A stretch of DNA of 59,858 bases, the filler included, from Platydemus manokwari (taxonomy: Eukaryota): assembly GCA_037951405.1 (NCBI GenBank). It is 5 parts of 5 records of this genome, joined end to end, with 100 filler letters (N's around TTAATTAATTAA, not from the genome) between each part and the next. Parts side by side here need not be neighbours in the genome. Positions count along the whole stretch, not along the records: positions 50,398 to 59,858 come from JBBMOY011246430.1; 4 more parts are not named here. One strand, written 5' to 3'. Shown one piece after another: positions 668 through 59,858 of this stretch (position 1 is the stretch's first letter; every line of letters begins with the position of its first letter). The translations under genes were made by a program, and so were the position numbers. The notes under the pieces are model-generated. The model was not told the origin of the DNA and did not search any database. It saw nothing but the letters and a program-made list of their open reading frames with translations.

Positions 668-1865
668 CACAATAGGTTTGATGAATTCCTCAATGGTATA
701 TGTGGTCAAATATTCAATCGATAAAGCAATGGGCTTTAACAATGATAATAATAGAGATAAATTGAATGATAAATCCGGTGAATCAAGCTGATTAAACATC
801 TCCAATCGCCATTTCAAATTGTCGAAACCTTTGAAATGTCCAAAAATATTAATCAAATCCACATAAATCACTTTATTCCGCCGATTATCGCTACTTACTG
901 CGTATTTCTGGAAAAAAAACCAAAGTTTTGTTGAGATTAAACACGTAAAATGTTGTCAAACAATGCTTACATGTTCGGTTATTGCAGGCAAATCACTGTT
1001 TTCCTGATCACCGGAATTATCATCGTCTAATGACGAATGTTCGGTGAATTTTTGATTAATTTTAAATAAATCATCAAGCAATGCCACTCGGACATTGTTC
1101 GGTTGAATATAATTGTTCAGACAACACTGGTGATACCTTTTTGATGAGTTTTAAAACATAAATAAACCAAAAACAAGAACTTCGTACTTAACATCTGGAT
1201 TAAATACAATAGCTAAAATACCCAAAATATACAAATTATCATCAGTCATTTTCATGGCACAAAGCTGCATCATAATTATTGAGTTTCGATAAATGCTTTC
1301 CTGGAAAAATTTGAAATATTGTTCAATGTTTAATTTTAAAATATGGAAAGTTTCATCGTTATCTTAACTAATAATAACAATTTAAATAATCCGCATACCA
1401 AAATATCCATTTTCCACCCTAAAACTGCATCGTCTGTCATAATTTTTTCAAAAGAAACTAAAAATCCATTTTTATAAAGATCTTTAAACAGTTCAACTTC
1501 AACATCCTTTTCTAAAGTTATTTATGTATACAAATCAAAGGCTGCTGATTTTGCGAAATTATATTACTTTGATATGAATATTTAATGGCTGTCAATAACA
1601 TACATTCCAAATCATCTTTTGGTAAAACAGGTACAACCCATCTTGGTTTATTAACCATTTCAATAAATCTCCTCATGACATCCATTGAAAAATGCAAATC
1701 ATCTTCATTCTTTGTATTCAATATTTCACTATCATCAATTACTTGCGTAGTTGAACTATTTTCAATTATTTCATTTGAATTACTATCAATTGCGTCTTCT
1801 TCATTATTAAGTAATATCCCCGAAACCTGGTTTTTTGGTTTTTTTGCATCTGATATAACCGTCAT
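668..1865 (-). CDS. USP9X: USP9X/USP24/fat-facets-like ubiquitin-specific protease, N-terminal five exons (probably continues left of the window)
   Basis: Spliced exons ~1865-1568, 1511-1399, 1281-1188, 1137-971, 907-668 with GT-AG introns. They give NKPRWVVPVLPKDDLECMLLTAI, GFLVSFEKIMTDDAVLGWKMDIL, MQLCAMKM..LAIVFNP and YVDLINIFGHFKGF..LLKPIA. These are collinear with the USP9X N-terminus (NRPRWVVPVLPKGELE / ISFTKILTDEAVSGWK / LVDLLNKFG). Confidence 0.85.
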
Positions 1866-4353
1866 ACTAAAGTAAAATTTACTATACTTATTTAAAAAAA
1901 TTTAAGTTTAATTATAAATTATTTGTTGATAAATCTTAATTTATTTAACATAATATATAAAATCATAAATTTTCCAACATAAAAATATATTTAACGTAAT
2001 TTAAACAAATTTCCATTCCATTAGATAAAATATTATAACTAAAAAATCAAACTTAATAAGATTACACAAATTTTCATAAATACAATATTAATATTTATAA
2101 TATATAGATTTATGAATTCCTACGTTATTTTTTAAATATAAATAAATGAAATATATGATTTTGATATTGTGATGAAATGAAAATCAAATTTATTTAAGTA
2201 ATGATACTTCTTTGAAATAATTGACTAGATATTTTGAATGTATACAAATGCATTTGTTAATACCATTTGTAATTCAAGAATAAAATTCATCTGAAATTTT
2301 AATAGTCATTGGAATCATACAAAAATTAAAAATTGATAGTAATTATATTAATCTAAATAATAATAATATTAAAAATTATTTTTCATTTTTCATAATGTTG
2401 ATTCATTAACTACAGAAATTACAATAAATTAAGATACGATGTTTTAAGTTAGTTAGAGATTTTAATTTGAGCCGCATGAGCATTCTATGGACATGATGGT
2501 CTGACAAATTAAAATTTAAAATTTGAGCTTACGACGCATTTGAAATTAACTGTTCGTACTTTATTAATATATGCAATACCTCAACCATTACATATGTGGA
2601 AAACAATTCATCATAAAACCGTTAAATTTATGGCCAATAAATTTTAAAAGCAATAACAGGACAATTTCCTTTCAACATCGCATAATTTGTCTATATGTGT
2701 TATGTATTAAATTTAAGTTCTGTTTTAACTTTTCTATCATTAAATTTTAGATAATTCTTAATTCCTATATTGCATGCACTTATTAAACAGGCTTGATATT
2801 TTGTTGAACCGACTCATCCTAGGTGACAACATTTTATGCCCGATTAATTATACATAGTGGCAATGGATAGATTGCATAAACTAACAGTGAAAATCAAAAG
2901 TAAATTTGATGAGAGTAAAATAATTTGAGTGCTGAAATTAACCATTAAGTTTTTGCATGAAAAAAATATTCAAACTGACCTCCACAATTGATAAAAACTC
3001 AAAGATAACCAATTATAATGATAAAGTTGTTCCGAAAGACTTCTTAATGATACGCATAGATTCTTGATTGGTGGCTAACAAAAAGAGGACAAGGAAAATT
3101 CAAAGTTAGGAAGAAAGTATGAATCGGGCCAGATCAAAATAGAAGATCTAAATACAGTTATTAGAATAAGGTCAGAACATCTAGAGGAGTTTCAATTTCT
3201 AAATACTATCAAACCAAGACGGTTCGAATAGTTAAAGAGATGGTTTGAAGATTAATCAGGCGAATCACGTGTTTGCATATTTTAGTATTCAGTTGCTGAT
3301 AATGTTTCTGAAATTTACATTTATATTTATTATGACTCTTATTTATCTTTTGCTTTAGTATTTATTATAAATTATCTATTCGTTTTATTGATTATTTGTA
3401 GTCGATTTTTATGAATATTTTTATAAGGTTTATAATAAAGGGTAATAATTCTATGAATATAACATGATTAGACAATTGATGTTCAATGTTTAAGACCTAA
3501 TGATAGTAAATTGGTAAATGGTGTTTATCAAATTTTGAATAATTGGATAAATTTTAAACAAATTTTCTTGTTTGTAACAAATTTTGAACGGTCTATTAAT
3601 CATACCATTTAAATTGTAGCCTTATGTGAAATCTTTTTAATGTAAATCCACCAGAGTGAACATATATTTCATCACTTTGACAATCACATTTATCCAACCG
3701 TAAATAACAAGTCATTGACATTTCAATTTTTATTTATTTATTCTTAACATAATAATGATACATGATTTATATTTATTATGAAATAAATTTTAAAATTTGA
3801 TTAAATATTTTTTTTAATAATTGCAGAGTCTCTTTTTGTAGAACTTATTTATCTGACTCCAAAAGGAATTATTTTTTTAACTAAGCTATATTTTACACAA
3901 GTTATATTATATAAGATTCTATCACAAAAATAAAAAAGCGAGTGTAGTCCGTGCTACTGACTTTATTACCACGCAGTTTAAATTCTGTTAAAATGCAACA
4001 AAATATTACTCCTATTCGTGCTGACTATCACGAATCCTTTTTATAACACCTTTTACAAATACACTCTATACTATAATAGACGATATAAACTAAAGGTCGA
4101 GTCAGTAATTACCGATTTATTCTAATTTCGTGAGTCATTTATCATTTTCGAATTTGTAAATTAGCATTTGTTTAATTATTTAATTATATTATTTATTTTC
4201 ATTATTATTTGAGCTGTTATTTTATTTTCGTATTAACTTCATTGAAATACTAGGTTCATTTCACGTGTGTATTGAGAGGACGTGATATGCTATCTTTTCT
4301 TTCCGAATACTAATTGATGGTTCCTATTATCTTGTTGAGGATGCATTGCACTC

Positions 4354-4495
4354 AAACAACTCCTACTCGTCAATATTCAAACCCTCACGTCAATATTAAT
4401 TTTCAAAACCCTCAAATAAATAACAAACCAAACAACTCCTACTCGTAAATATTCAAACCCTCAAATCAGTATTAATATCTAAAACCCTCAAATCC
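4354..4495. repeat. Tandem duplication, ~77-bp unit
   Basis: aaacaactcctactcgt(c/a)aatattcaaaccctca... at ~4354 and ~4430. Confidence 0.8.
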
Positions 4496-5075
4496 TAGAG
4501 CCGTCAAATATGTAAACTCTTATCAAATCAATCCAATCAATAAGACCTTATAGAATCAATAAAACCAATAACATCTTCAAATTAAATACATTCAATTCCT
4601 CAGAGCGACATTTGATGACATCAAACAACTGAATAAACCTTGCAAATCCGAATCCAAAGTCAGCCGCAATACAAAAACCCAACAAATCCTCTACCAATAT
4701 CTTCGACGTCAATCCCAATCAATTGATTCTCCATATTAACAGTAAAAACAGTAACAGTTTATTTAGTGATTTGCTCCATTTTTATTTTGACGTTATACTA
4801 ATAATATTTGTTATTTTGACAATCGCTTATTTGAATTATGATATTACTAATAATTATCTTATGAATACTTTATCTTTTGAATTGTAAACTGGAAGGAAAG
4901 ATTGTTATGAACGACACAATGTTAAGAGTTAAGCAATGAATTACTAGGAAAAATAATAACTGGCAAAAGAGTATGGACAGTAGAATAATGTGTTACAAGG
5001 TTAACAAATAGGTACAGTAACCCATGTCAGATAACAAGAATAAATTCGACGATAAATAATAATAAGAAGAATGAC

Positions 5076-5145
5076 AATAATAATAATAATAATAATAATA
5101 GTAATAATAATAATAATAGTAATAATAACCACTGTAATAATAATG
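5076..5145. repeat. (AAT)n microsatellite, imperfect
   Basis: Visible directly; it generates the spurious poly-Ile ORF 5001..5225. Confidence 0.9.
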
Positions 5146-8023
5146 AAACTCATAAAATAGTTAAATTTTATTTGACCAAAAAGAACAGGTAACAAAGGAA
5201 TAAAAACAGTAACAAAAACATCCATTATATTTGGTTTTATCTGATTAAAGAATTAACATTTAAGAAAGAAATAAAAAAATATCTAAATAGAAAATAAATA
5301 TAGTAACAGCCATTACGAGGTACAAATATGAAGAATAAATTTATCAACAAAGAATAAAAATGGCACCAGTCATAGAAATGACACCATCGAAAATAATATA
5401 TAAACCGCACGAGAAATTGAACATGCACAGCACTTTTAAAACATATCGAGAGCACTCTGCGAGATTACGTTAAAGCAATCAGCAAAACTATAGGAATTCA
5501 TTCTACCTGCCGTTATTTTCCGTAAGCATATATTTATTATTTCTTTTTATTACACAATCATCACTCAATTCATTTTTATTAATTAATATAACTCTTAGTG
5601 TCGTCTCCTCTTAATCTCCCTCCGGTACTCGGTACTTTGATTATCAAGTAGTTATCTGCTTGCGTAGTTTGCAACGGATTTTGGCAAATTTGTTTAATTA
5701 TTTTCTCGTGTTAGCTTTGTTTTCGTCTACATAAATAAATTATTTAAATAATTTGAGATTTGTGTTATCATATTTAGTAACTAGGGCTTTTTAATATCGT
5801 TTAAAATTGCAGATTTCACTGGTGTCAACGAGATATTGCGAATCCTTGTTGCCACAGCTAATAGTATTACGGGTTATCATTTTTAATCTCTCATTTAGTT
5901 TATTTTTCCTATAACTTCGTCTCCATACGAGCTATTGAAGCCCTCAATAGACCAGCTAAAATCATTAAACCCACAGCTACACAACTTCATTAATAATCTC
6001 ATTAAATATTCATGACATTGAGAACCAATTTTTCTATGCATACAATAGATAGTCAGTATAATTATAATGCATATAGTAACATTTTTTCTATATAATTAGT
6101 GACTTTTGAAGTTGACCTTTTTTAAAGAACTCTTTGTAAAGGTTTGCTTTTATGTTTTACCACCTTTGCTTTTCCTTTTTTTGGATTAATGTTTTAGTTT
6201 AAAGATGGTAGATTGTATTTTAATTTTTATGTCTACTATTCAACTTAACTAGGAGTATAGTGCAGTTCATACTTCAATTAATTAAATTTAATTAAAATAT
6301 CATTAAATATCACTAATTAAAATATCTATTTGATGACCTTTGAAAGAAGAATAAATCAAGAAGAGCCAATCTACCTGATTAAGTTTTCCAATATTTGCTT
6401 TTTAATAAGTCTTTTTTGTGTATATAAATTCAGCTCAAAATTGAAACTGCGCACAAAGTTTTCACCCATCGGATAGCGATTGGGATCATTCACCCAGCAA
6501 CTAAAAATAGATTCTGACGACAAAAGTCAAATTTGGGATTTCTTCATCCAACTCAACCAGACGAAAGCGTATATCGTAATTTACCCACACACTTGATACA
6601 AGAAAATTGATTCAATTTGGGATTCCTTTACTTCATCCAAGTTATCGTATATGCATTATTCAAACTCTAGGATGCCAATGGTAAACTTTATTATTAGTAC
6701 ACCAATCATTCAGCTGCAAAGCTCAGTGAGATTCGTAGGCCTTAAATATTAAATTTGCAAAGCTGAGGGATTTGCAACCAATAAACTTTAACTTTCTTTC
6801 ATTTCTCGTCCGGAGTTTGGTGGCACTTAATTCCACAAGACGGTTTTTAAATCCTTTAGGGCACAACACGAGCATCTGTTAAAATCATTTGCATTACACA
6901 TTTGTTAATTTGTACTATAAGAAAGTATTATTATTATTGAATCATTGTTTATTTCCTCTATCGTTATTATATTATCTTAATTATAACACGCAACCTATTA
7001 TTCTCATTGGGATCAGATCATTGGTGGAATCGCCATTCTTCTGATTTTAGTCAATATCAAATTTAATTTACAGATCATTCAACGAAATTGATCTAGTTGA
7101 ATTATCCTAAAGACGTCACACCAAATGCTACTTAGCAACCGGCTAGTATGATTCCATCATGATAAAGATTATGTAATGATTATGTATAATAAAAATGTGA
7201 AACCAAAGTCATTTATATACTAATTGAAAGAGGTGAAACTTATTTAAAAATTTACTCATTTATCGATGAGCCTAAAACTATTTTTAACAGTCTCCGATCT
7301 TTTCAAAATTACTGCGATTCAAGTGAGTAAATTGATTCTACGAGCTCTTAAATCAATTGCAAATTAACAGTTATTAAATATCCTTGTTATTGATTAATTA
7401 ATAATTTTAATAAGCAATGAGTTGTTTCAGTCATTTACTTATGATATATCAAATTAAGCTCATTGATCTAACATTTTGGAAATTAAAGATATTTGATTGT
7501 TTCTGATAAAATTTATTGATTAAAATCACCAGCTGACACAATAGTCATACAATAAATAACAATTCATGCTTTTATCAAATTTTATGCGTAAGTCATTTAT
7601 TACTATTCAGTTAATTGGCTCATTAAATACCTATTATATTTAGATTATTTTATTATAAAACTTTGTGACGGCGATCGAAAAGTAATATAGTATAGTTTAA
7701 AAATTAAAATCTTAACTTTTAATACAATTAAATAAGTTATATATAATCCAATGAAATAGTAAATATTATATATGTAATGCTGATAAAACAATTTTATAAT
7801 AATAAAGGATTTGGCTCTACTTAATTTATTCTTTGAAATAAAATTTTGTAAGATTTTTATTCGATTGTTTAAAATGTCATAAAGTCACAAATTTGAACGA
7901 GGTAAATATCGTCATTTCCAATAAAATAATTCATTTAGCATTTATTTGCTTTGTGATTGTTAATTAGGGTTAATAATCTTTGTCTAAATTTAATTTGATG
8001 CGAAATTTCCATAAAACCTGGGC

Positions 8024-11000
8024 ATGACTGATGATGGTTTTCAAAGTAAGAAAATTATTGTTAAAACGGAACCAGAAGAAAGCTTAGCTTATGCATCTAA
8101 AACTATCACAAATGTTGATGTTTTATCCGTACATAAAGATTTATCTCTTAGTCCCCTAAACTACGATTTTGATAATGTTGATATTGAATCAATTAATATT
8201 GGTCTGTTTATATAATAATGTTGAGCTTATTTAAATATATTTATAGATGATATATTTAATGAAACTCAGTCACAAGACAATTGGTGTTCAGTTAAAGGTT
8301 TCAGTTTGGTCGAATAACTTAATTATTTTTTTATAGATGAGAACGAAGGAAATTCTAAATATAGAAACAATCTTGAAATTGATAATGTGACAGTTTTATC
8401 AGGTATATGTAATCCAGGTTATACCAACAGTCTTTCTTTGTGTAATTCCGATAAAGAAACATCTTTACCTCAATATTCTAAAGTGGACTTTGGCTTAGAA
8501 GAAAACAAATTATTTCTTATTACCGATATTTTAAATGAAGATAAAGTCTCTTTAAATTCCAAATTTCCCTCCAACAACAGTCCTGTCACTATTATAAATT
8601 CCCAACAAAAATTGGAATGTATTAAACCTCAACTTTCATTACTCTTAAATCAACATAATAACTATGTTGATAATTCGGTGATTTATAATCAAAGAAATTA
8701 TAAGACTGAATCATTATTTAGCATGTCTTGTAATAATTCTAATTTAAATGTTCAACAAATTTCTAATCAATATCCCATTTCAAAAACCAAGATTATTCTG
8801 CCTATAATTGGGCCTTCGTCAAAGAAAAAATGTATCCCAGCGAAAACTGGTAAAATAGTATCACAATTGTGTTTTATCTGTAATGACAATGCAACAGGAA
8901 AACACTATGGTATAATCTTTTGAATATATAATTTATATTTATATTTGGATTTATCGGTTTATTAATTTATGATAGGTAAACTTTTAGATATTTATCCAAT
9001 AATTTACTAAAAACGAGTTTATATTTGAAAATCTTGTTGGAGATCGAGAGAATTTAACATTTTTTTTGAATGACTAAAAGTACTAATGAATACAAATAAC
9101 ATAAAAACTTGTAATATTGGAAATTTATATTTGAATTACAGAATAAAAATATCAGAATATCACGTAATTAGATATTAATCCAATATTTATTAAATCACAT
9201 TTGCTTTTAACTAAGTAATTGTGGGATTATAATAATGTGGATGTTTTTTGGCACGATACTACCCTGTATCTACATTTTATTTTTCACTTTAATATAAATA
9301 TATTTTGGGTTTCGAACGAAGATTTATTAGCAGTAAAGTCAATTATTTTCAATAAAATTACAAGTTTCAATGTTATCAGTTCACTGGAATAAAAATATCA
9401 TTTGATTAAAATCATTATCTATAATTTCTTAAATAATTACTTAAAATTCATATAATAATATATTAAGTTCTAATGTTATAATGATCTACTGTTTTTCAGG
9501 AGTTATTTCGTGTGAAGGTTGTAAGGGTTTTTTTAAAAGAACCGTGAGAAACTCATTACCATACACGTGTAGAGATTTCAATAATTGTGCTGTTGATAAA
9601 AAATTTCGCAATCGCTGCCAAGCTTGTCGTTTTCAGAAATGTCTACAAGTAGGAATGAAACGCGAAGGTTTTAGCTATTCGTTGTTAGTTAAAATTATCC
9701 TAAAATTTGCTAAGCTGTTCAAATTGAAAGACCGGAAAAACGAATCCAAAAATCCATAACAGATACTAGTGAAACAGTCATTTCATCACCTTCATCGGTG
9801 CAGACTGATGAATCCCTGGAGAAGATTCATTACAATTTAATTAATCAAATAAATAGTGATTATATGATGGAAATTGAACTCAAATATAATCCTGATGTTG
9901 AAGAGAAAGGAATTCTCGAAGGGAATGTCATGAAAGTCATTTGTCAACACGTTAATGATCATTTATTTAGCATAGTCTCTTGGGCCAAATATTTACCTGG
10001 ATTTGCAATACTTAATCTTAATGATCAAACATTACTTATCAAAATGTGTAAGCCAATATTTTTATTTATTTATAATACTTAAATTCGTTAATGTATTGTT
10101 AATATTCAATATGATACAATCTATATTATGATAAATTAGAGATTCATGTAGCTGTTTGTTTGTAATTGCAATTTTTGATAGAATAACCTTTCGAATATTG
10201 TATTTTAAAATGTTTAATCCAAGGAGCAGAAACCCCAACAATTGACAATCACAAGAAGCTGTTTTGTGAACTGATTTGTAAAATTAAAACCGAGATGGGA
10301 GGATATCTTAATTATACGGCGAGCAAAAAATATATTGTATAGTTTACGTTTACAGTTTCTTTTTTGGTTTTAATTAAATTTCAACTTTAAATAAATAATT
10401 TATAAGGTCGAAATCGAATTATTAAATTATATACCTCGACTGCCCAGTTCTGGAATAACCAATATTATGTGTAGATGAATAATATCTCCATATTTATACG
10501 ATAAGCAGTGTTTCATTTTATCAATCTACTAGGCGCATTATTATAGATGCGCATCATAAAAAAGCTTATCGATAAAGATGCTAATGAATCATAATGATAT
10601 TCTTTCATTTGATTCTGGTAACATTAGTAATTCGTTACGTGAGAAAATTTTTCATTATTTCACAAAACCAATTTTGCATTAATTTTTGCGATTCTTAAAA
10701 ATCTTTTTTGAAAAATAACCCTTATTAATATCTTTTACGTTATACCAATTCAATAATCTTTAACTAAAGTATTTGGTGATTTAATTATTTCTATAACTCA
10801 CATTGAGTTGTTACCAGAAATTAGCACTTTTCGTTATGCACTAAAATAATATTTCAGTATTGTTATGATTTTCTTTTACATATTGAATACTTATATTAGT
10901 AAAAAGCAATTTTATTTTTAAAATTCTGCTCCAAAATCTTATAATAAATACAAGTTTTTAATACTTGGCCATAAAGTGACCCATTATTTCACATATCTTT

Positions 11001-11646
11001 TATGTAAAATGCAATAATAAATTATAATAAGTATTATTTTCAATTGAATTATACGTATATCCCTGTTTAAGGTTGGGGTGAAATTGTTGTTGCCAACTTT
11101 ACTCACAGATCCATAAAACTTAATGAAGATATGATATTATTGAGAAATGGAACAAAATTAGTTCGAGAAATCGCTCAATCATCTGGAATAGGACAATTGA
11201 TTGATCGTATTATTTGCGAAGTTTTGCATAGATTTAGAGACATGAAAATTGACAAATGCGAATTGTCATATATAAAGGCTATTATTCTTTTCAATCCCAG
11301 TAATTTGAATTGATTATTTTCCTATGTTTTATCTATTTTTGTGTCAGATTTAAAAAAATTGGAAAATAGTTCCTTTGTTCAAATGATTAGAGATAAATTA
11401 TATACATCACTGCAGAAATATTGTCAACAGAAATTTCCTTCGGAAAAATTTAGATTCAGCAAACTGTTGTTAAGATTACCATCTTTGCGATCCATTGCTC
11501 ACAATTGCCTGGATCATTTTCGATTTTATGATATTATTGATAAATGTAGAGCTGAAGTAGTAAATGAAGATGAAAATTTGGAAGATCCTATGTTTAGTTT
11601 TCTTGATGAAATGTTGGGTCATTCAGATATAATTATGGATCACTGA
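8024..11646 (+). CDS. RXR: Retinoid X receptor / ultraspiracle-like nuclear receptor (NR2B), 7 coding exons
   Basis: Exons 8024-8201, 8247-8297, 8337-8909, 9500-9667, 9715-10047, 11072-11299, 11348-11646, all phase-consistent [21 protein letters not shown]|[29 protein letters not shown]-box [62 protein letters not shown]-2 FLDEML. Confidence 0.93.
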
Positions 11647-12559
11647 CTTCATATTTATGATTTACTATTTTATGAGTCAGTTATTTAGTATTGTGTACCA
11701 TCTACCAGAATGAAATATAAACGTTTTAAAGGTAATTAATAATACTTTTTAATACTGTTTTGTTATCTCTATCACTATTTCGAAATAATTATAGCGATAG
11801 CATTGTTATTAATATAATTGTTTTTGTTCAACTATAATAATCGATGAAGAGTAAAGTTTGTTTATTATTGGTTGTACAATGTACTCATTAGGATAAACTA
11901 ATTAAAGATATGTTATAATTTTGCATTGTGTATTCTCACAAATATTTCCTTTCATATTATGGCAAATACTGGCGATGATGTTCCTGAATTGACATGTGCC
12001 ATATGACATACATGACCATAGGAATCATTAACTAATAACGTCTTTTTGAAGAGCATGATATTCATTTGAATCTTGTTAAAATTATGAACTGGTTTTTCGT
12101 TTTGTTGATAAAACTTTAGTCGACATATAATTTTGAACTATAGGAACTCATTACATTATAGGAAGTACCAAATTACGTTTGATTATTAAAGTATAGACTT
12201 ATACGCCTGTTTTTACTGTGGTAGCTGATGTGCACCAGAAATTATGTTTCTGGCGACTTATTGTAAAACTTAATAAAAATTCAGTGAATTTCTCTTTTTA
12301 TATTTTGGAGTCAGAAAAAACTTAATTAAACGGATCTGTTTAAATGATTATGATGATAAAACAAATATTTTAGTTATCGATAACTTGGATTTTATTTTAG
12401 ATGATTTTTAAAATATTTCAAGGTATTGGTTTGGCAAGATTTATAAAATTAAGATAACAATATTATAGATCATATGTGTTTGTGGTTATAAATAATTAGG
12501 ATCCTTTGTTATTGTTTAAAATAAACTTATCGATTTCTTATTTCCTGAATTATGATATT

Positions 12560-12850
12560 AATATTTTCAATCGACAGCGTCATAAACAAATTTCTAACAG
12601 AGTTATGTTTGAAAAACAATGACAAGATTGGCATCTCTACAAATCGATGAATCATGTGATTTGGCAGCAAAATGCTAGAGAATGAATAATTTTTATATAT
12701 ATCGAGGAGACAGGTGAATTCTGAATTCAGTTAGCCATCACAGTAACCTCATTTATTAAAATGTAAATCATCTACATTAGCTCCAGTTTAAACCATAGAT
12801 TTCTGGTGTTCGATATATCATCAATAAATGTATAAAAATATACCACGAAA
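12560..12850 (+). mobile_element. hAT (Buster/Charlie/ZBED5-like) transposase remnant, internally deleted
   Basis: 12628-12720 reads LASLQIDESCDLAAKC*RMNNFIYIEETGEF, resembling Buster-type F(A/S)LQLDESTD....QL..FVRY. Downstream IDFWCSIY resembles the dimerisation domain. Stops and frameshifts are present. Confidence 0.55.
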
Positions 12851-13080
12851 TCAATCAAAAATTAATAATCACAACTGGATGAAAAATTTGAAAATTATAT
12901 CAATCAATATTAATGACGATATGAGACGGATTTGTTGGGATTTAAAGGGGTGTAGGGGAAAAATAATTATAATTGATTTATAAAATACAGTAAAAAGGCT
13001 TTTAAAAAATATATTCGATTAATATTTTATTTGGCTAATAGAAAGTTAAAATATTTTATTATTTCCTTATCAATTTTTTA

Positions 13081-13084
<4 letters not shown>

Positions 13085-13137
<53 letters not shown>

Positions 13138-13160
13138 AATAATTATTATAATAATAATAA
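13085..13160. repeat. (AAT)n microsatellite
   Basis: Visible directly. Confidence 0.95.
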
Positions 13161-13245
13161 TTAATATAATTGATGAGTCTATATTTTGACATTATTTTAA
13201 AATAATCATAAATTAAACGAATGAATGATGAGAATAAATTGAAAG

Positions 13246-13345
13246 NNNNNNNNNNNNNNNNNNNNNNNNNNNNNNNNNNNNNNNNNNNNTTAATTAATTA
13301 ANNNNNNNNNNNNNNNNNNNNNNNNNNNNNNNNNNNNNNNNNNNN
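13246..13345. other. Artificial contig-join spacer (N44-TTAATTAATTAA-N44)
   Basis: Identical 100-nt structure occurs four times; the 12-mer gives stops in all six frames. Confidence 0.97.
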
Positions 13346-13349
13346 TATA

Positions 13350-13510
13350 GGCAGTGAATCACTCGCAGATATTGTCTGCGATTAAATTTAATGCCAGTGA
13401 ATTTATTCACTGGTGAGAGAAAGTCTTTCCGAATAAATTTATTAGGCAGAGAAAATATCTCTCGATCAAATCTAATCGAGTGATATATTCCATTCTGCTA
13501 CAGAATTTTC
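13350..13510. repeat. Array of abutting short inverted repeats (degenerate ~45-50-bp palindromic tandem units)
   Basis: tcgcaga..tctgcga, attaaatttaat, ccagtgaat-tt-attcactgg, gaaag-t-ctttc, aataaatttatt, agaga..tctct, ctcgat..atcgag, attctg..cagaat. Confidence 0.8.
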
Positions 13511-15205
13511 ATGCGCAGAAATAGATAACAATTTATTTGTCGCTGTTAATACGCGATATCTCATTATATATTGATATTTTATAAATTAATTAATTTTTTT
13601 AAGGGATTTCGGCGGGTTTTTAATTGGAGATTTTATTGGAAATATTATTTTACGTATATAAATAATGATTATTATAAATATCAATATTTTAAACAGGACT
13701 TTTCTCCAGAAAGTGAGGGTCATAAAAATACACACTGATAAAAATAAAACCTAATACAGTAAAAAATAATACACATTTTATACGTACTGTCATGCACACA
13801 TTTTTCAAAGTAAATCAATTGTTTTTAAGTAACTAGTTTGGCCAGAACCCCAACAAACGAATCATCAATAAAAGACCTGTAATATAATATTCATCGCATC
13901 TAACTTAATCAACACGTGTAATCGTTATTTTAATTGACAATATCTAGAATAATAATTAAGATAAAATCAAGACAATCAATATATACGCTAACAATACAAA
14001 TTGACTGCTAAACAATAATATTACAATAAATAATTACAAACAGTCATTATATAATGTGATTATAATTACTCAATTGTCTCGACTTGCATTCTAGTCCTCT
14101 ATTAGTCAATGCCTTAATGTCTAGGTAGCCTACCTGAAAAAGAAGTTAGTCGAAACAAAGAATTGTAGTAAGATTATATTAAAGATGGTAGTAAAAAGAC
14201 ATTCTTGATTACTGTGTAATTCATTTCACTGTACACTGAAATGTTCTAAAAAATATGATTTCACCAAATTTGATTCAATTGTAATACGGATATATATATA
14301 ATTGCTGATTTTCAAAGTTTTGGGTATTTAATTTCTGATTGAGTCTGGCTTTTCCCTAATGAGTTTGAACTTGATTATCATAGCTCGACTTTTAGATTGT
14401 CGTTTAGACCCTGTGAATAACATGATTATCAGTGACGCAATATGTTGTTACAAGTTATGTGTTCGGAGAAATAATGATAATGGTATGTGAATTACTGACA
14501 TTTGTTACGAAATAATAGGGAATAACAAAATTATAGTTTGAGATAAGGACATGAACTAAGTATCTGTCTGCTGTAACATAAGCCAGTTACCTAAGAATTA
14601 ATAGCTACGTGATATTTAAAAGCCCTTTTTCAGATAATAACTTTTACATTAATTAATTATTATGATTCATTGAACTATTCCAAAACAGACAACATTCTAG
14701 CTGCAATATATAGTATGCCGTTAAATAATTGAAAGCTTTAATAGGTTGATTGTTAGCTAGTTGATCCCGTTTTTCCTTTTTATAAAAACAGGGTAGATAT
14801 CTAGACTAATTCAAATTATTTGCAAATCATTTCTGATCATAAGATATTAACAACAAACTGGTTTTAGAAAATATATTTAAATATTTAAAGTACAAACTTA
14901 AATTTAAGCAAATCACTATGTTCAATAAATGAAATTTAGTAATATTAAATCACAATTTGTTTTATTTCTGAAATTAAATACATTTACGAATCTTGTTTAT
15001 TTATTTAATTGTGTTAATTATTAAATAATCAGTAATTTTATTATAAAAAATTATTTATTATATTCAGTCAGGTATTCATTTGAAATTTTAGTTTAAAATT
15101 TCAATTTTTAATGGTAATTAATTAACGTTTACTTTTTTCTTAATTATGTATATTTAAATCTAAAACATTTTGTGTTTAAATAATCCAAGGTTATATTTAT
15201 TGATT

Positions 15206-15969
15206 ATGGAAGAACAATTGTGCGAGTCTATCAAGGATAGCTTAGAACGAGATGGAGTGGTATTTTCCTTGCATGAAATTGAGGAAGCTTTGAATTTTTT
15301 AAATAATATGTCAAATTCGTTAATAATAGTTAATGTACCATCTGTAATTTTTGATAATTCTTTAATTAAAGTAAGCAATATTTAATATAAATAGTTAGTA
15401 AAAAATGTTAATTATTAATTTAGGAAAAATTTGAATCATTTTTTATGGAATGTGATAAAAAAACAAAGTTTTCCTATTTAAAAAGTTTCAGAAGAATTAG
15501 GGTGGATATGTCTTCTCCAGACACTGCTATTATTGCTCGTTTTCGTTTCAATAACATAATTAAAGAATGCGCTGATTCCGAAGATTGTCATTCAGTACTA
15601 GTAGAAGTATTGCAATTGGGAAAGGAATCAGAAGAATACTTAGAAACAATGCGATGCTTTTTTGCACAGGACTTAACTATCGAAACACCAGATTATTTAG
15701 AATTGCCCAAATTGGATAAACAATTTCTCATATCTCCTCCAGCTTCTCCACCTGTGGGATGGGAACCTAAACCCGAAGGAGAACCTATTATCAATTATGA
15801 TTTACTTGCTGCATTAGCATCTCTGAGTCCCGGAGAATCTCACGAATTACATCCACCTAGTCATAATTACCCAGGTATAGTCATTACTCCATGTCAAGAT
15901 GAGGATTCTTTTTTCACTAAACGTCCACACGGTAAAATCATCCAGACTCGTTGTCCGGAAAGAAATTAA
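15206..15969 (+). CDS. RCAN: Calcipressin / regulator of calcineurin (RCAN/DSCR1/sarah), 2 exons
   Basis: Exons 15206-15370 and 15424-15969 (53-nt phase-0 intron). RRM-like YLKSFRRIRV, LxxP (YLELP), signature KQFLISPPASPPVGWE, NYDLLAAL, HELH, PxIxIT (PGIVIT), C-terminal TxxP (QTRCP). Confidence 0.95.
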
Positions 15970-28562: not shown

Positions 28563-28662
28563 NNNNNNNNNNNNNNNNNNNNNNNNNNNNNNNNNNNNNN
28601 NNNNNNTTAATTAATTAANNNNNNNNNNNNNNNNNNNNNNNNNNNNNNNNNNNNNNNNNNNN
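28563..28662. other. Artificial contig-join spacer
   Basis: N44-TTAATTAATTAA-N44. Confidence 0.97.
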
Positions 28663-37450: not shown

Positions 37451-37550
37451 NNNNNNNNNNNNNNNNNNNNNNNNNNNNNNNNNNNNNNNNNNNNTTAATT
37501 AATTAANNNNNNNNNNNNNNNNNNNNNNNNNNNNNNNNNNNNNNNNNNNN
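37451..37550. other. Artificial contig-join spacer
   Basis: N44-TTAATTAATTAA-N44. Confidence 0.97.
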
Positions 37551-50297: not shown

Positions 50298-50397
50298 NNN
50301 NNNNNNNNNNNNNNNNNNNNNNNNNNNNNNNNNNNNNNNNNTTAATTAATTAANNNNNNNNNNNNNNNNNNNNNNNNNNNNNNNNNNNNNNNNNNNN
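50298..50397. other. Artificial contig-join spacer
   Basis: N44-TTAATTAATTAA-N44. Confidence 0.97.
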
Positions 50398-50966: not shown

Positions 50967-51858
50967 ATGTCTCAAATTAGTTTAGATTTTTATTGCTATA
51001 AATGCGATTCATATTTTATTCTTAGAGATATTAAAGTTAAACATTTTTGAGTATTTTTATTTGTAATCTTGTGTAATTAGGATCCTTCTTGTGAATTTTG
51101 TCACGATTCATTCGTTGTATCATCGAAAGAGTAGTTTTGACAATTAATATATATTTATTAAGTCTTCGTTAGACATGAAATATTAGAATTTGATGATAAT
51201 GAATACGACGAAATTGATGAAGATTATTATAAAGTTGGAAAATATCCTAGAAGTAGAAACGAAAGGTATATTGGAAAAGCAACTGCTTACAATGTATTTT
51301 CTAATATTTTAGAAAAAATAATTTTATTATAATTAGAACAATCTTACAAATCTTGGAAGTAAAGTATATTTAACACACAATTCTAACATGAACAGGTTAT
51401 TTCAAAGTCAAGGTAATTGAATTAAACTATTAAATTTCTCTATATCTGACGTATTTTAACAGCAGAAATTTCTAATAGTCCTTTTAAACCAATAACTAAT
51501 GAACAAATGGATAGTTTACCTACAGTAGAAATGTGTAGTAGTGGTGTTTCATGCTCAATTTGTTTTATGGAATTCTCAGAGAGCATCGATATAGTGAAAT
51601 CATTATATTGTGGTCATCAATTTCATAAGACATGCTTGAAGAGCTGGCTATGCCAAGTAACTACCACATGTTTGTTATTTTATAAATGTTTCTAAATTTT
51701 AGAAGCTAGAATGTCCTACTTGTCGTCATTTGGTTTCGTTTCAAACAAATACAAATAAAAGATCATTTTCAAGTATTGTTATTGATGGTACCAGATCGAA
51801 TTGCAACGAATCATCAGCATTTGTTACAAATTTTGGAATTGATGCAGAAGAGAAATAA
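50967..51858 (+). CDS. RNF126/RNF115(BCA2)-like E3 ligase: N-terminal zinc ribbon + C-terminal RING-H2
   Basis: Exon 1 50967-51035 FYCYKC; exon 2 51081-51130 CEFCHDSFV; RING-H2 MDSLPTV...CSICFMEF...LYCGHQFHKTCLKSWLCQ|KLECPTCR; stop at 51856-58. Boundaries of the middle micro-exons are uncertain. Confidence 0.85.
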
Positions 51859-57376: not shown

Positions 57377-57512
57377 ATTAATATTATCATATTGATTTTG
57401 ATTTATTTTATAAAATGTATTGATATTTCTCAATAAAATTAAAAATAAAAAATTCAAAATTTAAAGAAAATTTTCAAAGGTGAGTTTTAGTGTTATCAAT
57501 AGGGATTTTCAT

Positions 57513-58245
57513 AATTTCAGAGTTTTTCCTCGTCGAGATTTGTAAAATTTCATGAATTTTTCATTGATTTTCTATAATAAAAACAAACTTTTGGGGTGAC
57601 CATTTTTCGACATAATTTGTGCCATTTAACGTTTACTTAGTGAGATTTAAAGTACTTTCTTTGAGATGATAGACGTTTCTTCAAATTTCATGGATTTTCC
57701 GAAATTTAAATACCATTATCAAAAACGAGTATTTATCCGTTAGCTATAGGATAATGAAAAATTTCAGATTTTTTCCTCATTGAATTTTGTAAAATTTTAT
57801 TAATTTTTCATTGATTTTCAAAAATATACATAAATATTTGAGTGACCACGTTTCGATCTTATATTAGCCATTTAACGTTTATACAGCGAGATTTTCGAGT
57901 TTCATCTTTGAAATGATCAACTTTTCATCAAATTGTTCAGTTGAGTTTTTTCGATAATTATAAGAATTTCGAGAATTTAATCTTTTGCTCTTTTTTAGAT
58001 TTGTAAAATTTCATTTGTTTTTCGTAGATTTTCTGTAATATAGACAAATATTTCATGACCATTTTTCCACCTTATTTTGGGCATTTATTTAGAGAGATTT
58101 TCGGGTTTTTTCTTTATGACGATAAACTTGTTAAAGTTGACTTTTTTCGTTAATTTTTAGAATTTTGAAGATTCGATCTTTTTCACTACTTTAGATATGT
58201 CAAATCTCATTAGTCTTTCATTGAGTTTCTAAGGTATAGACAAAA
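57513..58245. repeat. Degenerate tandem repeat, ~200-250-bp unit, ~4 copies
   Basis: Recurring tttgtaaaatttcat...ttttcattgattttc...tgacca.tttt...gccatttaacgttt...gagattt at ~57538, 57786, 57999, 58195. Confidence 0.75.
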
Positions 58246-58277
58246 AAGTATGCCAATTCATCGACGTTAATTTGGAT

Positions 58278-58357: not shown

Positions 58358-58409
58358 TTTATTTATAGTTACAAAAGTCGTTTTAAAAACGCCAAGTATT
58401 TATATAATT

Positions 58410-58937
58410 CTAAAATTTTGTTTTAATCAACCCATTACAATTAAATCTTCCCAACATCTTTTCTTCTTTTAAATCTATCAATCTATAAGTTATGGGTTTG
58501 GTTTTACAAACCTCTTTAATAATAGAGATTTCCTTTGAATATTTTGTGGTATATCCTTTTTCGAACTTGTATTTATATTTGAAAATTCTCACTTTATCTA
58601 GAACTTTAAATTTTGGTTGAGCATTTAAATTATTATTAAAATTATTCCATTCTCCAATTTTTTCTTTAATTATTTCTGGATTTTTACTAGGTTCAGCAGG
58701 GGTAACTCCAATATTTGAATGAATTTTATTATTATATTTAAAAACAAAATTTTGCAATAAATTATTATCCCATTTATAACTTCCAGCCGCTGTAAAATGT
58801 TTCTACATAATATTTTTCAAAGTTCTAATAAAAATTTCTGCAAAAACAGCTTTACCTTCATTTTCTATATGAAATAAAATGATTTTATTTTCATCACAAA
58901 ATTTTTTAAAAAATTTACCTCTAATTCCAGATTCGAG
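58410..58937 (-). pseudogene. Maverick/Polinton (adintovirus-type) c-integrase, C-terminal half, one in-frame stop
   Basis: LESGIRGKFFKKFCDENKIILFHIENEGKAVFAEIFIRTLKNIM*KHFTA...YNNKIHSNIGVTP...PKFKVLDKVRI...FEKGYTTKYSKE...PITYRLIDLKEEKMLGRF, the characteristic Polinton integrase core and C-terminal signature. Confidence 0.9.
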
Positions 58938-59381
58938 CCCATTTTTGACCCGTATAATTATGTACAGGATTACTTTTGTTTAATGGATTCATCCTTTTAA
59001 AATGAAATTCCCCCAGATGACAACCAGTACTAAATTTATTTCAAAACCAATTATTTGTAATTGCTTCTTATATATCACCTCCCGCTACTATCTTATTTGG
59101 ATCACCTCCAATAAATTTAAAACCTCTTAATTTCTTACTTTTCGAACTGGTACTAAAAGTCGAACTTTGTTCAAGTTCGGCGAACGAAGTTCTTTCCCTT
59201 CCTTTGGCATATTCATACTATTAGTACCACTCGTATTTTTCATACTCATACCATTCGTACTATTTATATTCGTATTATTCGCACTCTTACCATTCATATG
59301 AGATTTGACTTTTTCATGTTTTGATTTATTAGATTTATAAGTTTTCTTATCACAAATCTGACAAAAATAATTTGTACACAT
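58938..59381 (-). pseudogene. Polinton-like ORF: C2H2-type zinc finger followed (after a frameshift) by a truncated PLA2X/parvovirus-VP1u-like N-terminus
   Basis: YFCQICDKKTYKSNKSKHEKVKSH, then GGDI*EAI...GEFHF...VHNYTGQK, resembling GGDIQK..E.H..Y.YxGPGT. Cut at the junction with the integrase. Confidence 0.55.
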
Positions 59382-59444
59382 TTTTAAAATCTAAAAATAA
59401 TCCCCCAAAAATGGGGACAAATAGTTTAAAATTTATTGAGGAAA

Positions 59445-59735
59445 ATGGAAAACGGTTATTTAAAAAAAGTAGAAAATTCTGGAGAATCTATAATATGTTA
59501 TGGTGAAACATTTATGCTTACTTATTGTAAACACTATTTGCTTGAAGAATGTAATAAAAAAAATAGATACGATAAATGTCCTTATTGTATACAAAATATA
59601 CATGAAATGATCATTCTATTGAATTGCATAAATATAAAAATTTCTGAATATATCATTAGAGAATTCCAAGATGAAGTAAATTGGAAAGTTATTTCAGAAC
59701 ATCAAGATTTATCGGAAGATTTTATAAGAGAATGA
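59445..59735 (+). pseudogene. Viral-type RING finger (eroded) fused to a tryptophan-repeat unit
   Basis: ESIICY...LTYCKHYLLEEC...KCPYC (RING with two ligands mutated), then ISEYIIREFQDEVNWKVISEHQDLSEDFIRE, matching the LSE.FIREF.D.VNW..IS..Q tryptophan repeat. Confidence 0.7.
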
Positions 59736-59858
59736 TTCAGTAATAAATGAATTTATTGTTGTAAATAAACCAACACCTGCACCACAATATAAAGCAATTG
59801 TTGGTAAAATTCCAAAACCTGAAAGAACTGGTAAAATGGTAGATATTATAGTTAAAGC
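59727..59858 (+). pseudogene. Partial intronless ORF with a KPxPAP motif, probably part of the same viral element
   Basis: ..VINEFIVVNKPTPAPQYKAIVGKIPKPERTGKMVDIIVK, open to the window end. Confidence 0.35.

What the first reader, a model, noticed from the sequence alone, without database searches (positions are those of the whole stretch)
59445..59735. RING E3 fused to an entomopoxvirus/phage-type tryptophan repeat inside a Polinton-like element
Seen: a degenerate RING (single-base changes TGT>TCT and CAT>CTT would account for the two lost ligands of a RING-H2) followed by about 1.3 units of LSE.FIREF.D.VNW..IS..Q. Known: this repeat defines the tryptophan-repeat family of entomopoxviruses and some phages. 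Inference: repeat (substrate binding) + RING could be a virus-encoded ubiquitin ligase aimed at host defence proteins, moved between large DNA viruses and Polintons. I am not aware of this architecture being a standard Polinton gene.
Basis: partly seen in the sequence, partly recalled or inferred. Interest (0 to 1): 0.7.

Follow-up and report, generated by a model that had tools for sequence, protein, structure and literature searches.

The report
Broken RING–tryptophan-repeat gene in a Maverick
A dead, cut-off copy of a gene that joins a RING finger to viral tryptophan repeats sits in a decayed virus-like transposon (likely a Maverick/Polinton) of an animal; intact relatives are predicted to be ubiquitin ligases, a pairing that insect poxviruses likely already have, but which I did not find described for Mavericks.

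Summary
The 96-codon ORF at 59445-59735 has a degenerate RING-H2 (6 of 8 ligands) and 1.3 units of the 23-residue tryptophan repeat. The fusion is unlikely to be a deletion artefact: a natural protein, P0172, has an intact RING-H2 plus four repeats and is collinear with the ORF (40% identity), and differing copies in run X1 cover the linker. This copy is dead. It ends in mid-repeat at a junction, and the neighbouring integrase gene lacks about 227 codons. That integrase is of the Maverick zinc-finger/PLA2/rve type. The pairing is not new: a repeats-plus-RING model aligns over its whole length to entomopoxvirus MSV027 and MSV205, where the RING appears to lie behind the repeats. What looks new is the carrier. 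Besides this locus, 2 of 206 fetched repeat proteins carry Maverick gene fragments (P0172, packaging ATPase; a spider protein, likely minor capsid). No searched paper holds both 'polinton' and 'tryptophan repeat'. Ligase activity, targets and direction of transfer are untested. New variant of a known kind; interest 0.4.

The parts
59445..59735 (+). RING + tryptophan-repeat ORF, 96 aa, truncated pseudogene copy
   Evidence: collinear with P0172 aa 25-125, 40/101 identical, E 7e-16 pairwise
59487..59588 (+). Degenerate RING-H2-like domain (aa 15-48): 6 of 8 ligand positions kept, central helix about 4 residues short and without Trp
59589..59639 (+). Linker, 17 aa (23 aa in P0172, where it holds a half repeat)
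   Evidence: covered in run X1 by 12-13 contigs that differ from the window at 59608 and 59622
59640..59708 (+). Tryptophan repeat, full 23-aa unit (Trp at 59682)
59709..59732 (+). First 8 residues of a second unit, cut off
   Evidence: 17 of 24 bases equal to the start of unit 1; profile hit E 0.0036
59731..59735 (.). Junction, likely a deletion breakpoint; the stop codon lies in the sequence to its right
   Evidence: other letters before 59731 in X1 (6 contigs), X2 (1), X4 (1); X1 depth rises from 1,678 to 15,126 and 72,345
59733..59858 (-). Hydrophobic reading frame, 42 aa, open at the window's end; high-copy part of the element; family not established
   Evidence: weak pairwise hit to a Maverick membrane gene (E 0.009), none to another, profile score reached by 87 of 500 shuffles
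59382..59444 (.). 63 bases between the two head-to-head start codons; a shared promoter region is inferred only
   Evidence: sequence
59127..59381 (-). Zinc-finger start of the broken ZnF-PLA2-integrase gene
   Evidence: matches the N-terminus of that ORF in L025, L019, L018 (tblastn E 1e-6 to 1e-3)
58948..59091 (-). Next piece of the same gene (start of the PLA2-like region)
   Evidence: P0208 aa 4-48, 60% identical
58410..58934 (-). C-terminal half of the Maverick-type rve integrase, with an internal stop; P0208 aa 49-275 are missing at 58934-58948
   Evidence: 57% identical to P0208 aa 276-449; P0207-P0210 carry rve above cut-off; loose ends at 58933/58934 in all 4 runs

Best explanation
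This is a dead, truncated copy of an accessory gene, RING finger first and 23-residue tryptophan repeats behind, in a decayed element that is likely a Maverick/Polinton; its intact relatives are predicted to be single-chain ubiquitin ligases. Shown: the two domains, the lesions, an intact collinear natural protein (P0172), other differing copies of the region in run X1, and the head-to-head position beside a Maverick-type integrase gene. Inferred mechanism for the intact form: the RING-H2 binds two zinc ions and recruits a host E2-ubiquitin conjugate (established RING chemistry); the repeats stack into a helical solenoid (predicted) whose four variable positions after each Trp would grip a target protein; the target would be ubiquitinated. 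The target is unknown: a host restriction factor is the simplest guess, a protein of a co-infecting large DNA virus is the alternative. The repeat gene is likely exchanged between large DNA viruses and Mavericks; the direction is not known.
For: Fusion is real: P0172 aligns to aa 6-96 without a change of order, passes Pfam zf-RING_2 (29.1 bits, cut-off 27.3) and has 4 repeat units. In X1, 13 and 12 contigs cover the linker with other letters, depth does not fall to zero between RING and repeat, and three joints go back within the repeat, one of them by exactly 69 bases. Dead copy: junction at 59731, integrase deletion of about 227 codons; 203 of 206 fetched repeat proteins have 3 or more units. 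Maverick: integrase 52-64% identical to rve proteins, whose relatives lie with pPolB, A32-type ATPase and double jelly-roll capsid in L012; same ZnF-PLA2-integrase layout in L025. Recurrence: the tail of P0172 matches Maverick packaging ATPases (profile E 1.4e-7, next of 206 proteins 0.009); spider protein P0091 (Caerostris extrusa GIY32772.1) joins a fragment of the likely minor capsid gene to the repeats (E 7e-11). Ligase logic: RING behind the repeats in P0080, whole-length matches to MSV027 and MSV205, F-box in AMV254 (PMC7728225, passage). Solenoid: repeats pLDDT above 90; variable positions 16, 17, 20, 21 of the unit.
Against: No activity or binding data. Only 1 of 206 fetched proteins has the RING-first order, and only 150 of 1508 representative hits were listed. 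0 of 81 Maverick-integrase loci (288 kb, mostly short) held a RING or repeat by pattern; one weak tblastn hit (L070, E 4e-4) lacks the Trp. 0 of 67 distinct repeat ORFs in 33 viral loci held a RING, so most repeat proteins carry no RING. The DNA context of P0172 (1198-base contig) could not be seen; its Maverick origin rests on a 36-residue match. P0091 is a gene model and may join neighbouring pieces. Whether other copies in this genome keep all 8 ligands is not shown: 241 difference rows were not printed. X1 may be the window's own source. The RING of the P0172 model has low confidence (about 44, thin alignment). Core Maverick genes and terminal repeats of this copy were not seen.
Confidence: 0.7

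Rival explanations
1. The gene belongs to the element, but its RING is degenerate in all copies of this subfamily, so it would act as a binder or decoy, not as a ligase.
For: Three separate RING lesions in one copy; most repeat proteins have no RING (2 of 206; 0 of 67); the printed rows show no variant at the ligand positions, but most rows were not printed.
Against: The same copy is broken elsewhere (integrase deletion and stop, junction at 59731), so general decay explains the lesions. P0172 keeps all 8 ligands and the Trp.
Confidence: 0.13
2. RING and repeats came from two separate genes and were joined by a deletion in this copy or its close ancestor.
For: This copy has at least two other likely deletion joints within 1 kb; the linker is 6 aa shorter than in P0172; two X1 contigs skip parts of the linker (59563-59661, 59607-59680).
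Against: P0172 has the same order and nearly the same spacing in one ORF; 12-13 differing contigs cover the linker; one X1 contig (depth 94) appears to carry integrase side, a 21-base RING piece and the repeat in that order (short piece, weak).
Confidence: 0.09
3. The gene is not Maverick cargo but a piece of a large DNA virus (entomopox- or giant-virus-like) inserted into a dead Maverick and copied with it.
For: The repeat family is typical of large DNA viruses; endogenous tryptophan-repeat fragments are reported in ants (PMC6540820, passage); X1 depth over 59086-59722 (95-1,678) is far below that of most flanking bins (up to 131,076); runs X2-X4 show no cover of the RING part (no proof of absence).
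Against: Start codons lie head-to-head, 63 bases apart, as in compact viral genomes; Maverick fragments are joined to repeats in two unrelated proteins; lower depth also fits a minority subfamily, since the integrase's own N-terminal part falls in the same trough.
Confidence: 0.08

Closest known systems
Tryptophan repeat gene family of entomopoxviruses: MSV027 (Q9YW65), MSV205 (Q9YVN7), MSV029 of Melanoplus sanguinipes EPV
   Same: Same 23-aa repeat and fold (E 1.3e-12, 43% identity for MSV027 against the P0172 model). A query of repeats plus RING aligns over 122 and 136 columns to MSV027 and MSV205, against about 55-68 for most repeat-only hits and about 41-59 for RING-only hits, so they very likely carry a RING too. 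This agrees with my recollection of Afonso et al. 1999, which was not held.
   Different: There the RING appears to follow the repeats; here and in P0172 it comes first. Carrier is a large poxvirus, not a Maverick. This copy has only 1.3 units and a broken RING.
AMV254 of Amsacta moorei EPV
   Same: Tryptophan repeats joined to a ubiquitin-ligase module (PMC7728225, passage).
   Different: F-box adaptor for an SCF complex instead of a RING; not tested here.
Tryptophan-repeat proteins of Bacillus phage G (gp558-563) and of giant viruses
   Same: Same repeat; called 'of unknown function' (PMC12484599, passage).
   Different: No RING seen in 67 distinct repeat ORFs from 33 viral loci.
Maverick/Polinton elements (adintoviruses) with PLA2 and rve integrase
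   Same: Integrase type and ZnF-PLA2-integrase layout; PLA2-like genes are described for them (PMC8502044 section 3.2).
   Different: Accessory genes listed in that section (PLA2X, GasderminX, Cupiennin, Oncoid, Bcl2, IAP) include no tryptophan repeat or RING; 'tryptophan' has 0 occurrences in its text and in the one supplement file held.

Membership tests
Tryptophan repeat gene family | 23-residue unit with fixed Leu/Phe/Trp/Ile scaffold | tested here: met
   Spacing of 23 in 576 cases, next class 46 in 74; profile hit E 3.2e-9; unit 65-78% identical to best hits
Tryptophan repeat gene family | Tandem array of several units | tested here: not met
   This copy has 1.3 units; 203 of 206 homologues have 3 or more. 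Joints in X1 fit further units in other copies
Tryptophan repeat gene family | Fold match to named members | tested here: met
   Tested on homologue P0172, not on the window ORF: MSV027, MSV205, MSV029, AMV029, phage G gp558-563
RING-H2 E3 ligase | Eight zinc ligands C3H2C3 | tested here: not met
   6 of 8 in this copy; 8 of 8 in P0172
RING-H2 E3 ligase | Pfam RING score above cut-off | tested here: not met
   17.9 bits against 27.9; P0172 passes
RING-H2 E3 ligase | Central helix with the E2-contacting Trp (feature recalled) | tested here: not met
   About 4 residues short and no Trp here; Trp59 present in P0172
RING-H2 E3 ligase | E2-dependent ubiquitin transfer | not testable with these tools
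   No assay
Maverick/Polinton | Retroviral-type (rve) integrase of the Maverick kind | tested here: met
   relatives lie with pPolB, ATPase and capsid
Maverick/Polinton | pPolB, packaging ATPase, capsid and protease genes in the same element | not testable with these tools
   Window ends at 59858; no genome held
Maverick/Polinton | Terminal inverted repeats and target-site duplication | tested here: inconclusive
   Only one end is in the window; no convincing inverted repeat
Maverick/Polinton | Many diverged copies in the host | tested here: met
   2786 contig pieces of X1 laid, most under 95% alike; summed depth is no copy number

The most novel reading that the evidence does not exclude
Animal Mavericks repeatedly carry tryptophan-repeat genes, some as complete RING-first ubiquitin ligases with a variable binding face. 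This would be a small, retargetable effector shared with entomopoxviruses and giant viruses, used against host defences or against a helper virus, and not yet listed among Maverick genes.
Probability: 0.4. Interest if true: 0.62.

Novelty: new variant of a known kind. Interest (0 to 1): 0.4.

Why it matters
The tryptophan repeat is widespread in large DNA viruses, has no solved structure among the matches and is described as of unknown function. Finding it with a RING in front, a RING behind or an F-box points to a target-binding role for ubiquitin ligases in eukaryotic viruses. Its presence in Mavericks of unrelated hosts would add an effector class to these endogenous viruses and a marker of gene flow with large DNA viruses. 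Small natural proteins such as P0172 make the idea testable. This particular copy is a fossil with no function of its own.

Tried and rejected
No genome is held for the window. The ESM Atlas gave no answer. Word-based homologue searches found only repeat proteins: 0 of 56 with a RING and 6 short ones. The integrase piece alone found no viral contig. No RNA holder was listed, which says nothing on expression; small-share runs X2-X4 were laid and cover mainly the flanks. The idea that the N-terminus of Argiope protein P0065 is a Maverick capsid piece is inconclusive: no pairwise match, profile E 0.11; it shares a short non-repeat stretch with P0091. The F-box look of P0186 and of an ORF in L006 got no F-box hit in Pfam. 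The family of the ORF at 59733-59858 was not established. PDB: sequence hits only for the RING, no Foldseek match at E 0.001, best VIA Z 5.1 to generic helical repeats. NCBIfam gave nothing for the ORF. Literature: 0 papers with 'tryptophan repeat' + 'polinton'; 0 with 'C3H2C3' + 'entomopoxvirus'; 0 for the five-term Maverick/ubiquitin search; 8 with 'tryptophan repeat' + 'RING finger', none on viral repeats by title and abstract start; some searches gave the papers read. Afonso 1999 and Theze 2013 were not held, and most subscription papers and Repbase are outside the library. No tree was built: 31 residues of repeat cannot give a direction of transfer. No complex was predicted: no candidate partner. 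My notebook gives the ZnF start as 59375 and 69 bases between starts; the sequence shows 59381 and 63.

Full report
Observation. The ORF runs from ATG 59445 to the stop at 59733-59735 and gives 96 residues. Its first half has six Cys/His at RING-H2 ligand positions; positions 1 and 5 are other residues. Pfam RING models hit at E 0.003-0.005, below cut-off. The second half is one full 23-residue tryptophan repeat and 8 residues of a second. PHROG 3532 hits at E 5e-10, and a profile of 505 units from homologues finds only this place in the window. The host is an AT-rich animal: an intron-split nuclear receptor gene and calcipressin lie in the window.

Is the fusion real? Word-based searches returned only repeat proteins (0 of 56 with a RING; 6 short ones). 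The search of 1.84 billion representatives gave 1508 hits at E 0.001, of which 150 were listed. Of all 206 proteins fetched, 2 have a RING. P0172 has an intact RING-H2 in front of four repeats and is collinear with residues 6-96 (40 of 101 identical). The N-terminal half alone beats all 5000 shuffles (75 against at most 57), though any RING would score in that test. P0080 has the RING behind eight units. In run X1, which holds a contig identical to 59209-59518, 13 and 12 contigs cover the linker with other letters than the window, and three joints go back within the repeat; one fits the 69-base period exactly, one would fit it if 21 unknown letters lie between, and one is 2 bases off. Two contigs skip parts of the linker. 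X1 may be the window's own source, and most rows of that output were not printed.

This copy is dead. The ORF ends in mid-unit at 59731, where contigs of three runs join other sequence and X1 depth rises about ninefold and then further. So the stop codon likely comes from a deletion joint. 203 of 206 homologues have three or more units. The RING also lacks about 4 residues of its central helix, with the Trp that P0172 has. The neighbouring gene has lost the equivalent of P0208 residues 49-275 and has a stop.

The element. The minus-strand gene at 59381-58410 matches rve integrases at 52-64%. Relatives lie in L012 with pPolB, A32-type ATPase and a double jelly-roll capsid. L025, L018 and L019 have the same zinc-finger start and layout. 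The RING gene starts 63 bases from that start, head to head. The element is therefore likely a Maverick/Polinton, but its core genes and far end are outside the window and no genome is held. X1 depth over 59086-59722 is 95-1,678, against 10,000-131,000 over most of the integrase, so the cassette marks a minority subfamily (inference; the tool warns that depth is no copy number). The frame at 59733-59858 is high-copy, but its family test failed (87 of 500 shuffles reach its score).

Recurrence in Mavericks. Profiles built from the 81 Maverick-integrase loci were run on the 206 repeat proteins. The ATPase profile hits the tail of P0172 (E 1.4e-7, next 0.009; pairwise E 2e-7). The profile of the gene that precedes the capsid gene in L012 (minor capsid by recalled label) hits the spider protein P0091 (E 7e-11; named). 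Integrase, polymerase, protease and major capsid profiles gave nothing clear. Against this, none of the 81 loci themselves (288 kb, mostly short) holds a RING or repeat. The gene is thus occasional cargo, not a standard gene.

Mechanism. The P0172 model shows two short helices per unit at pLDDT above 90; its RING is poorly modelled. Positions 16, 17, 20 and 21 of the unit vary most among 575 units (part of the fixed scaffold was imposed by my pattern). With helical spacing they would lie on one face; earlier scan note e1-9996849 says the same and is no independent support. I infer a single-chain ligase in the intact form: RING for the E2, solenoid for the target. Nothing here shows activity or a target. 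Polinton-like viruses that ride with entomopoxviruses and swap genes with them are described (PMC11296320, passages), which offers a route and a second kind of target.

What is known. The P0172 model matches the entomopoxvirus tryptophan repeat family, phage G gp558-563 and giant-virus proteins, and nothing clear in the PDB. To test my recollection that some MsEPV members carry a RING, I folded the last repeats plus RING of P0080 (118 aa). MSV027 and MSV205 were the only 2 matches at E 0.001 among at least 500 counted, aligned over 122 and 136 columns at 36% and 30% identity, while most repeat-only and RING-only targets aligned over about half (ranges are not printed and rmsd is high, about 13, as for hinged domains). 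The primary paper was not held, so that point rests on this test and on recall. AMV254 is a repeat protein with an F-box (PMC7728225, passage). For Mavericks I found no mention: one search gave 0 papers; 'tryptophan' has 0 occurrences in PMC8502044 (passages, section 3.2 whole, one supplement file of about 4.0 million characters that may be cut), PMC5803895 (passages), PMC11296320 (passages and one supplement file) and bioRxiv 10.64898/2026.10.13.758929 (passages, supplements not seen). Gene maps held as pictures, Repbase and most subscription papers were not seen. PMC6540820, PMC6669658, PMC3901692, PMC5561611 and PMC12484599 were seen as passages only.

Verdict. Real feature, real fusion, dead copy. 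It works, in its intact relatives, most likely like a viral RING ligase with a repeat target-binding arm. This copy fails the membership tests for a RING-H2 ligase and for a repeat array. The domain pairing is very likely known from entomopoxviruses; the RING-first order and the Maverick carrier are the new parts. New variant of a known kind, interest 0.4.

Noticed in passing
P0091 (Caerostris extrusa GIY32772.1) and P0065 (Argiope bruennichi KAF8766573.1): Two spider gene models hold tryptophan repeats; P0091 starts with a fragment of the likely Maverick minor capsid gene (E 7e-11), and both share a short non-repeat stretch.
   Followed up: partly
P0172 aa 194-229: The tail after the repeats is a piece of a Maverick-type packaging ATPase, so this protein may itself be a junction product of a decayed element.
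   Followed up: partly
window 58410-59381 (-); L025:148-1470, L018, L019: Zinc finger, PLA2-like domain and integrase lie in one ORF in this Maverick group (PLA2 label by recalled motif, not by a profile hit).
   Followed up: partly
window 58400-59085 and 59723-59858: Very high summed depth in run X1 (up to 131,076, against 13.6 for a contig identical to the window): the element family is very abundant in this host.
   Followed up: no
L005:3804-6069, L006:1716-5834: A 168-kb viral contig has tandem tryptophan-repeat genes that share a conserved N-terminal peptide of about 30 residues, possibly an adaptor tag.
   Followed up: no
P0134, P0155, P0190, P0136: The repeat is also joined to a dual-specificity phosphatase, a RuvC-like domain, DUF7666 and DUF3846 (83 repeat proteins scanned).
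   Followed up: no
window 51450-51695 (+): A separate, intact RING-H2 frame (zf-RING_2 36 bits), probably a host gene exon; not compared with the finding.
   Followed up: no
window 8318-11646 (+), 15424-15969 (+): Host genes: an intron-split nuclear receptor and calcipressin, which mark the host as an animal.
   Followed up: partly
window about 57500-58275: A degenerate tandem repeat of about 200-250 bases left of the element.
   Followed up: no
window 13246-13345, 28563-28662, 37451-37550, 50298-50397: Four pairs of 44-base N runs, 12 bases apart: scaffold gaps or masked joins.
   Followed up: no
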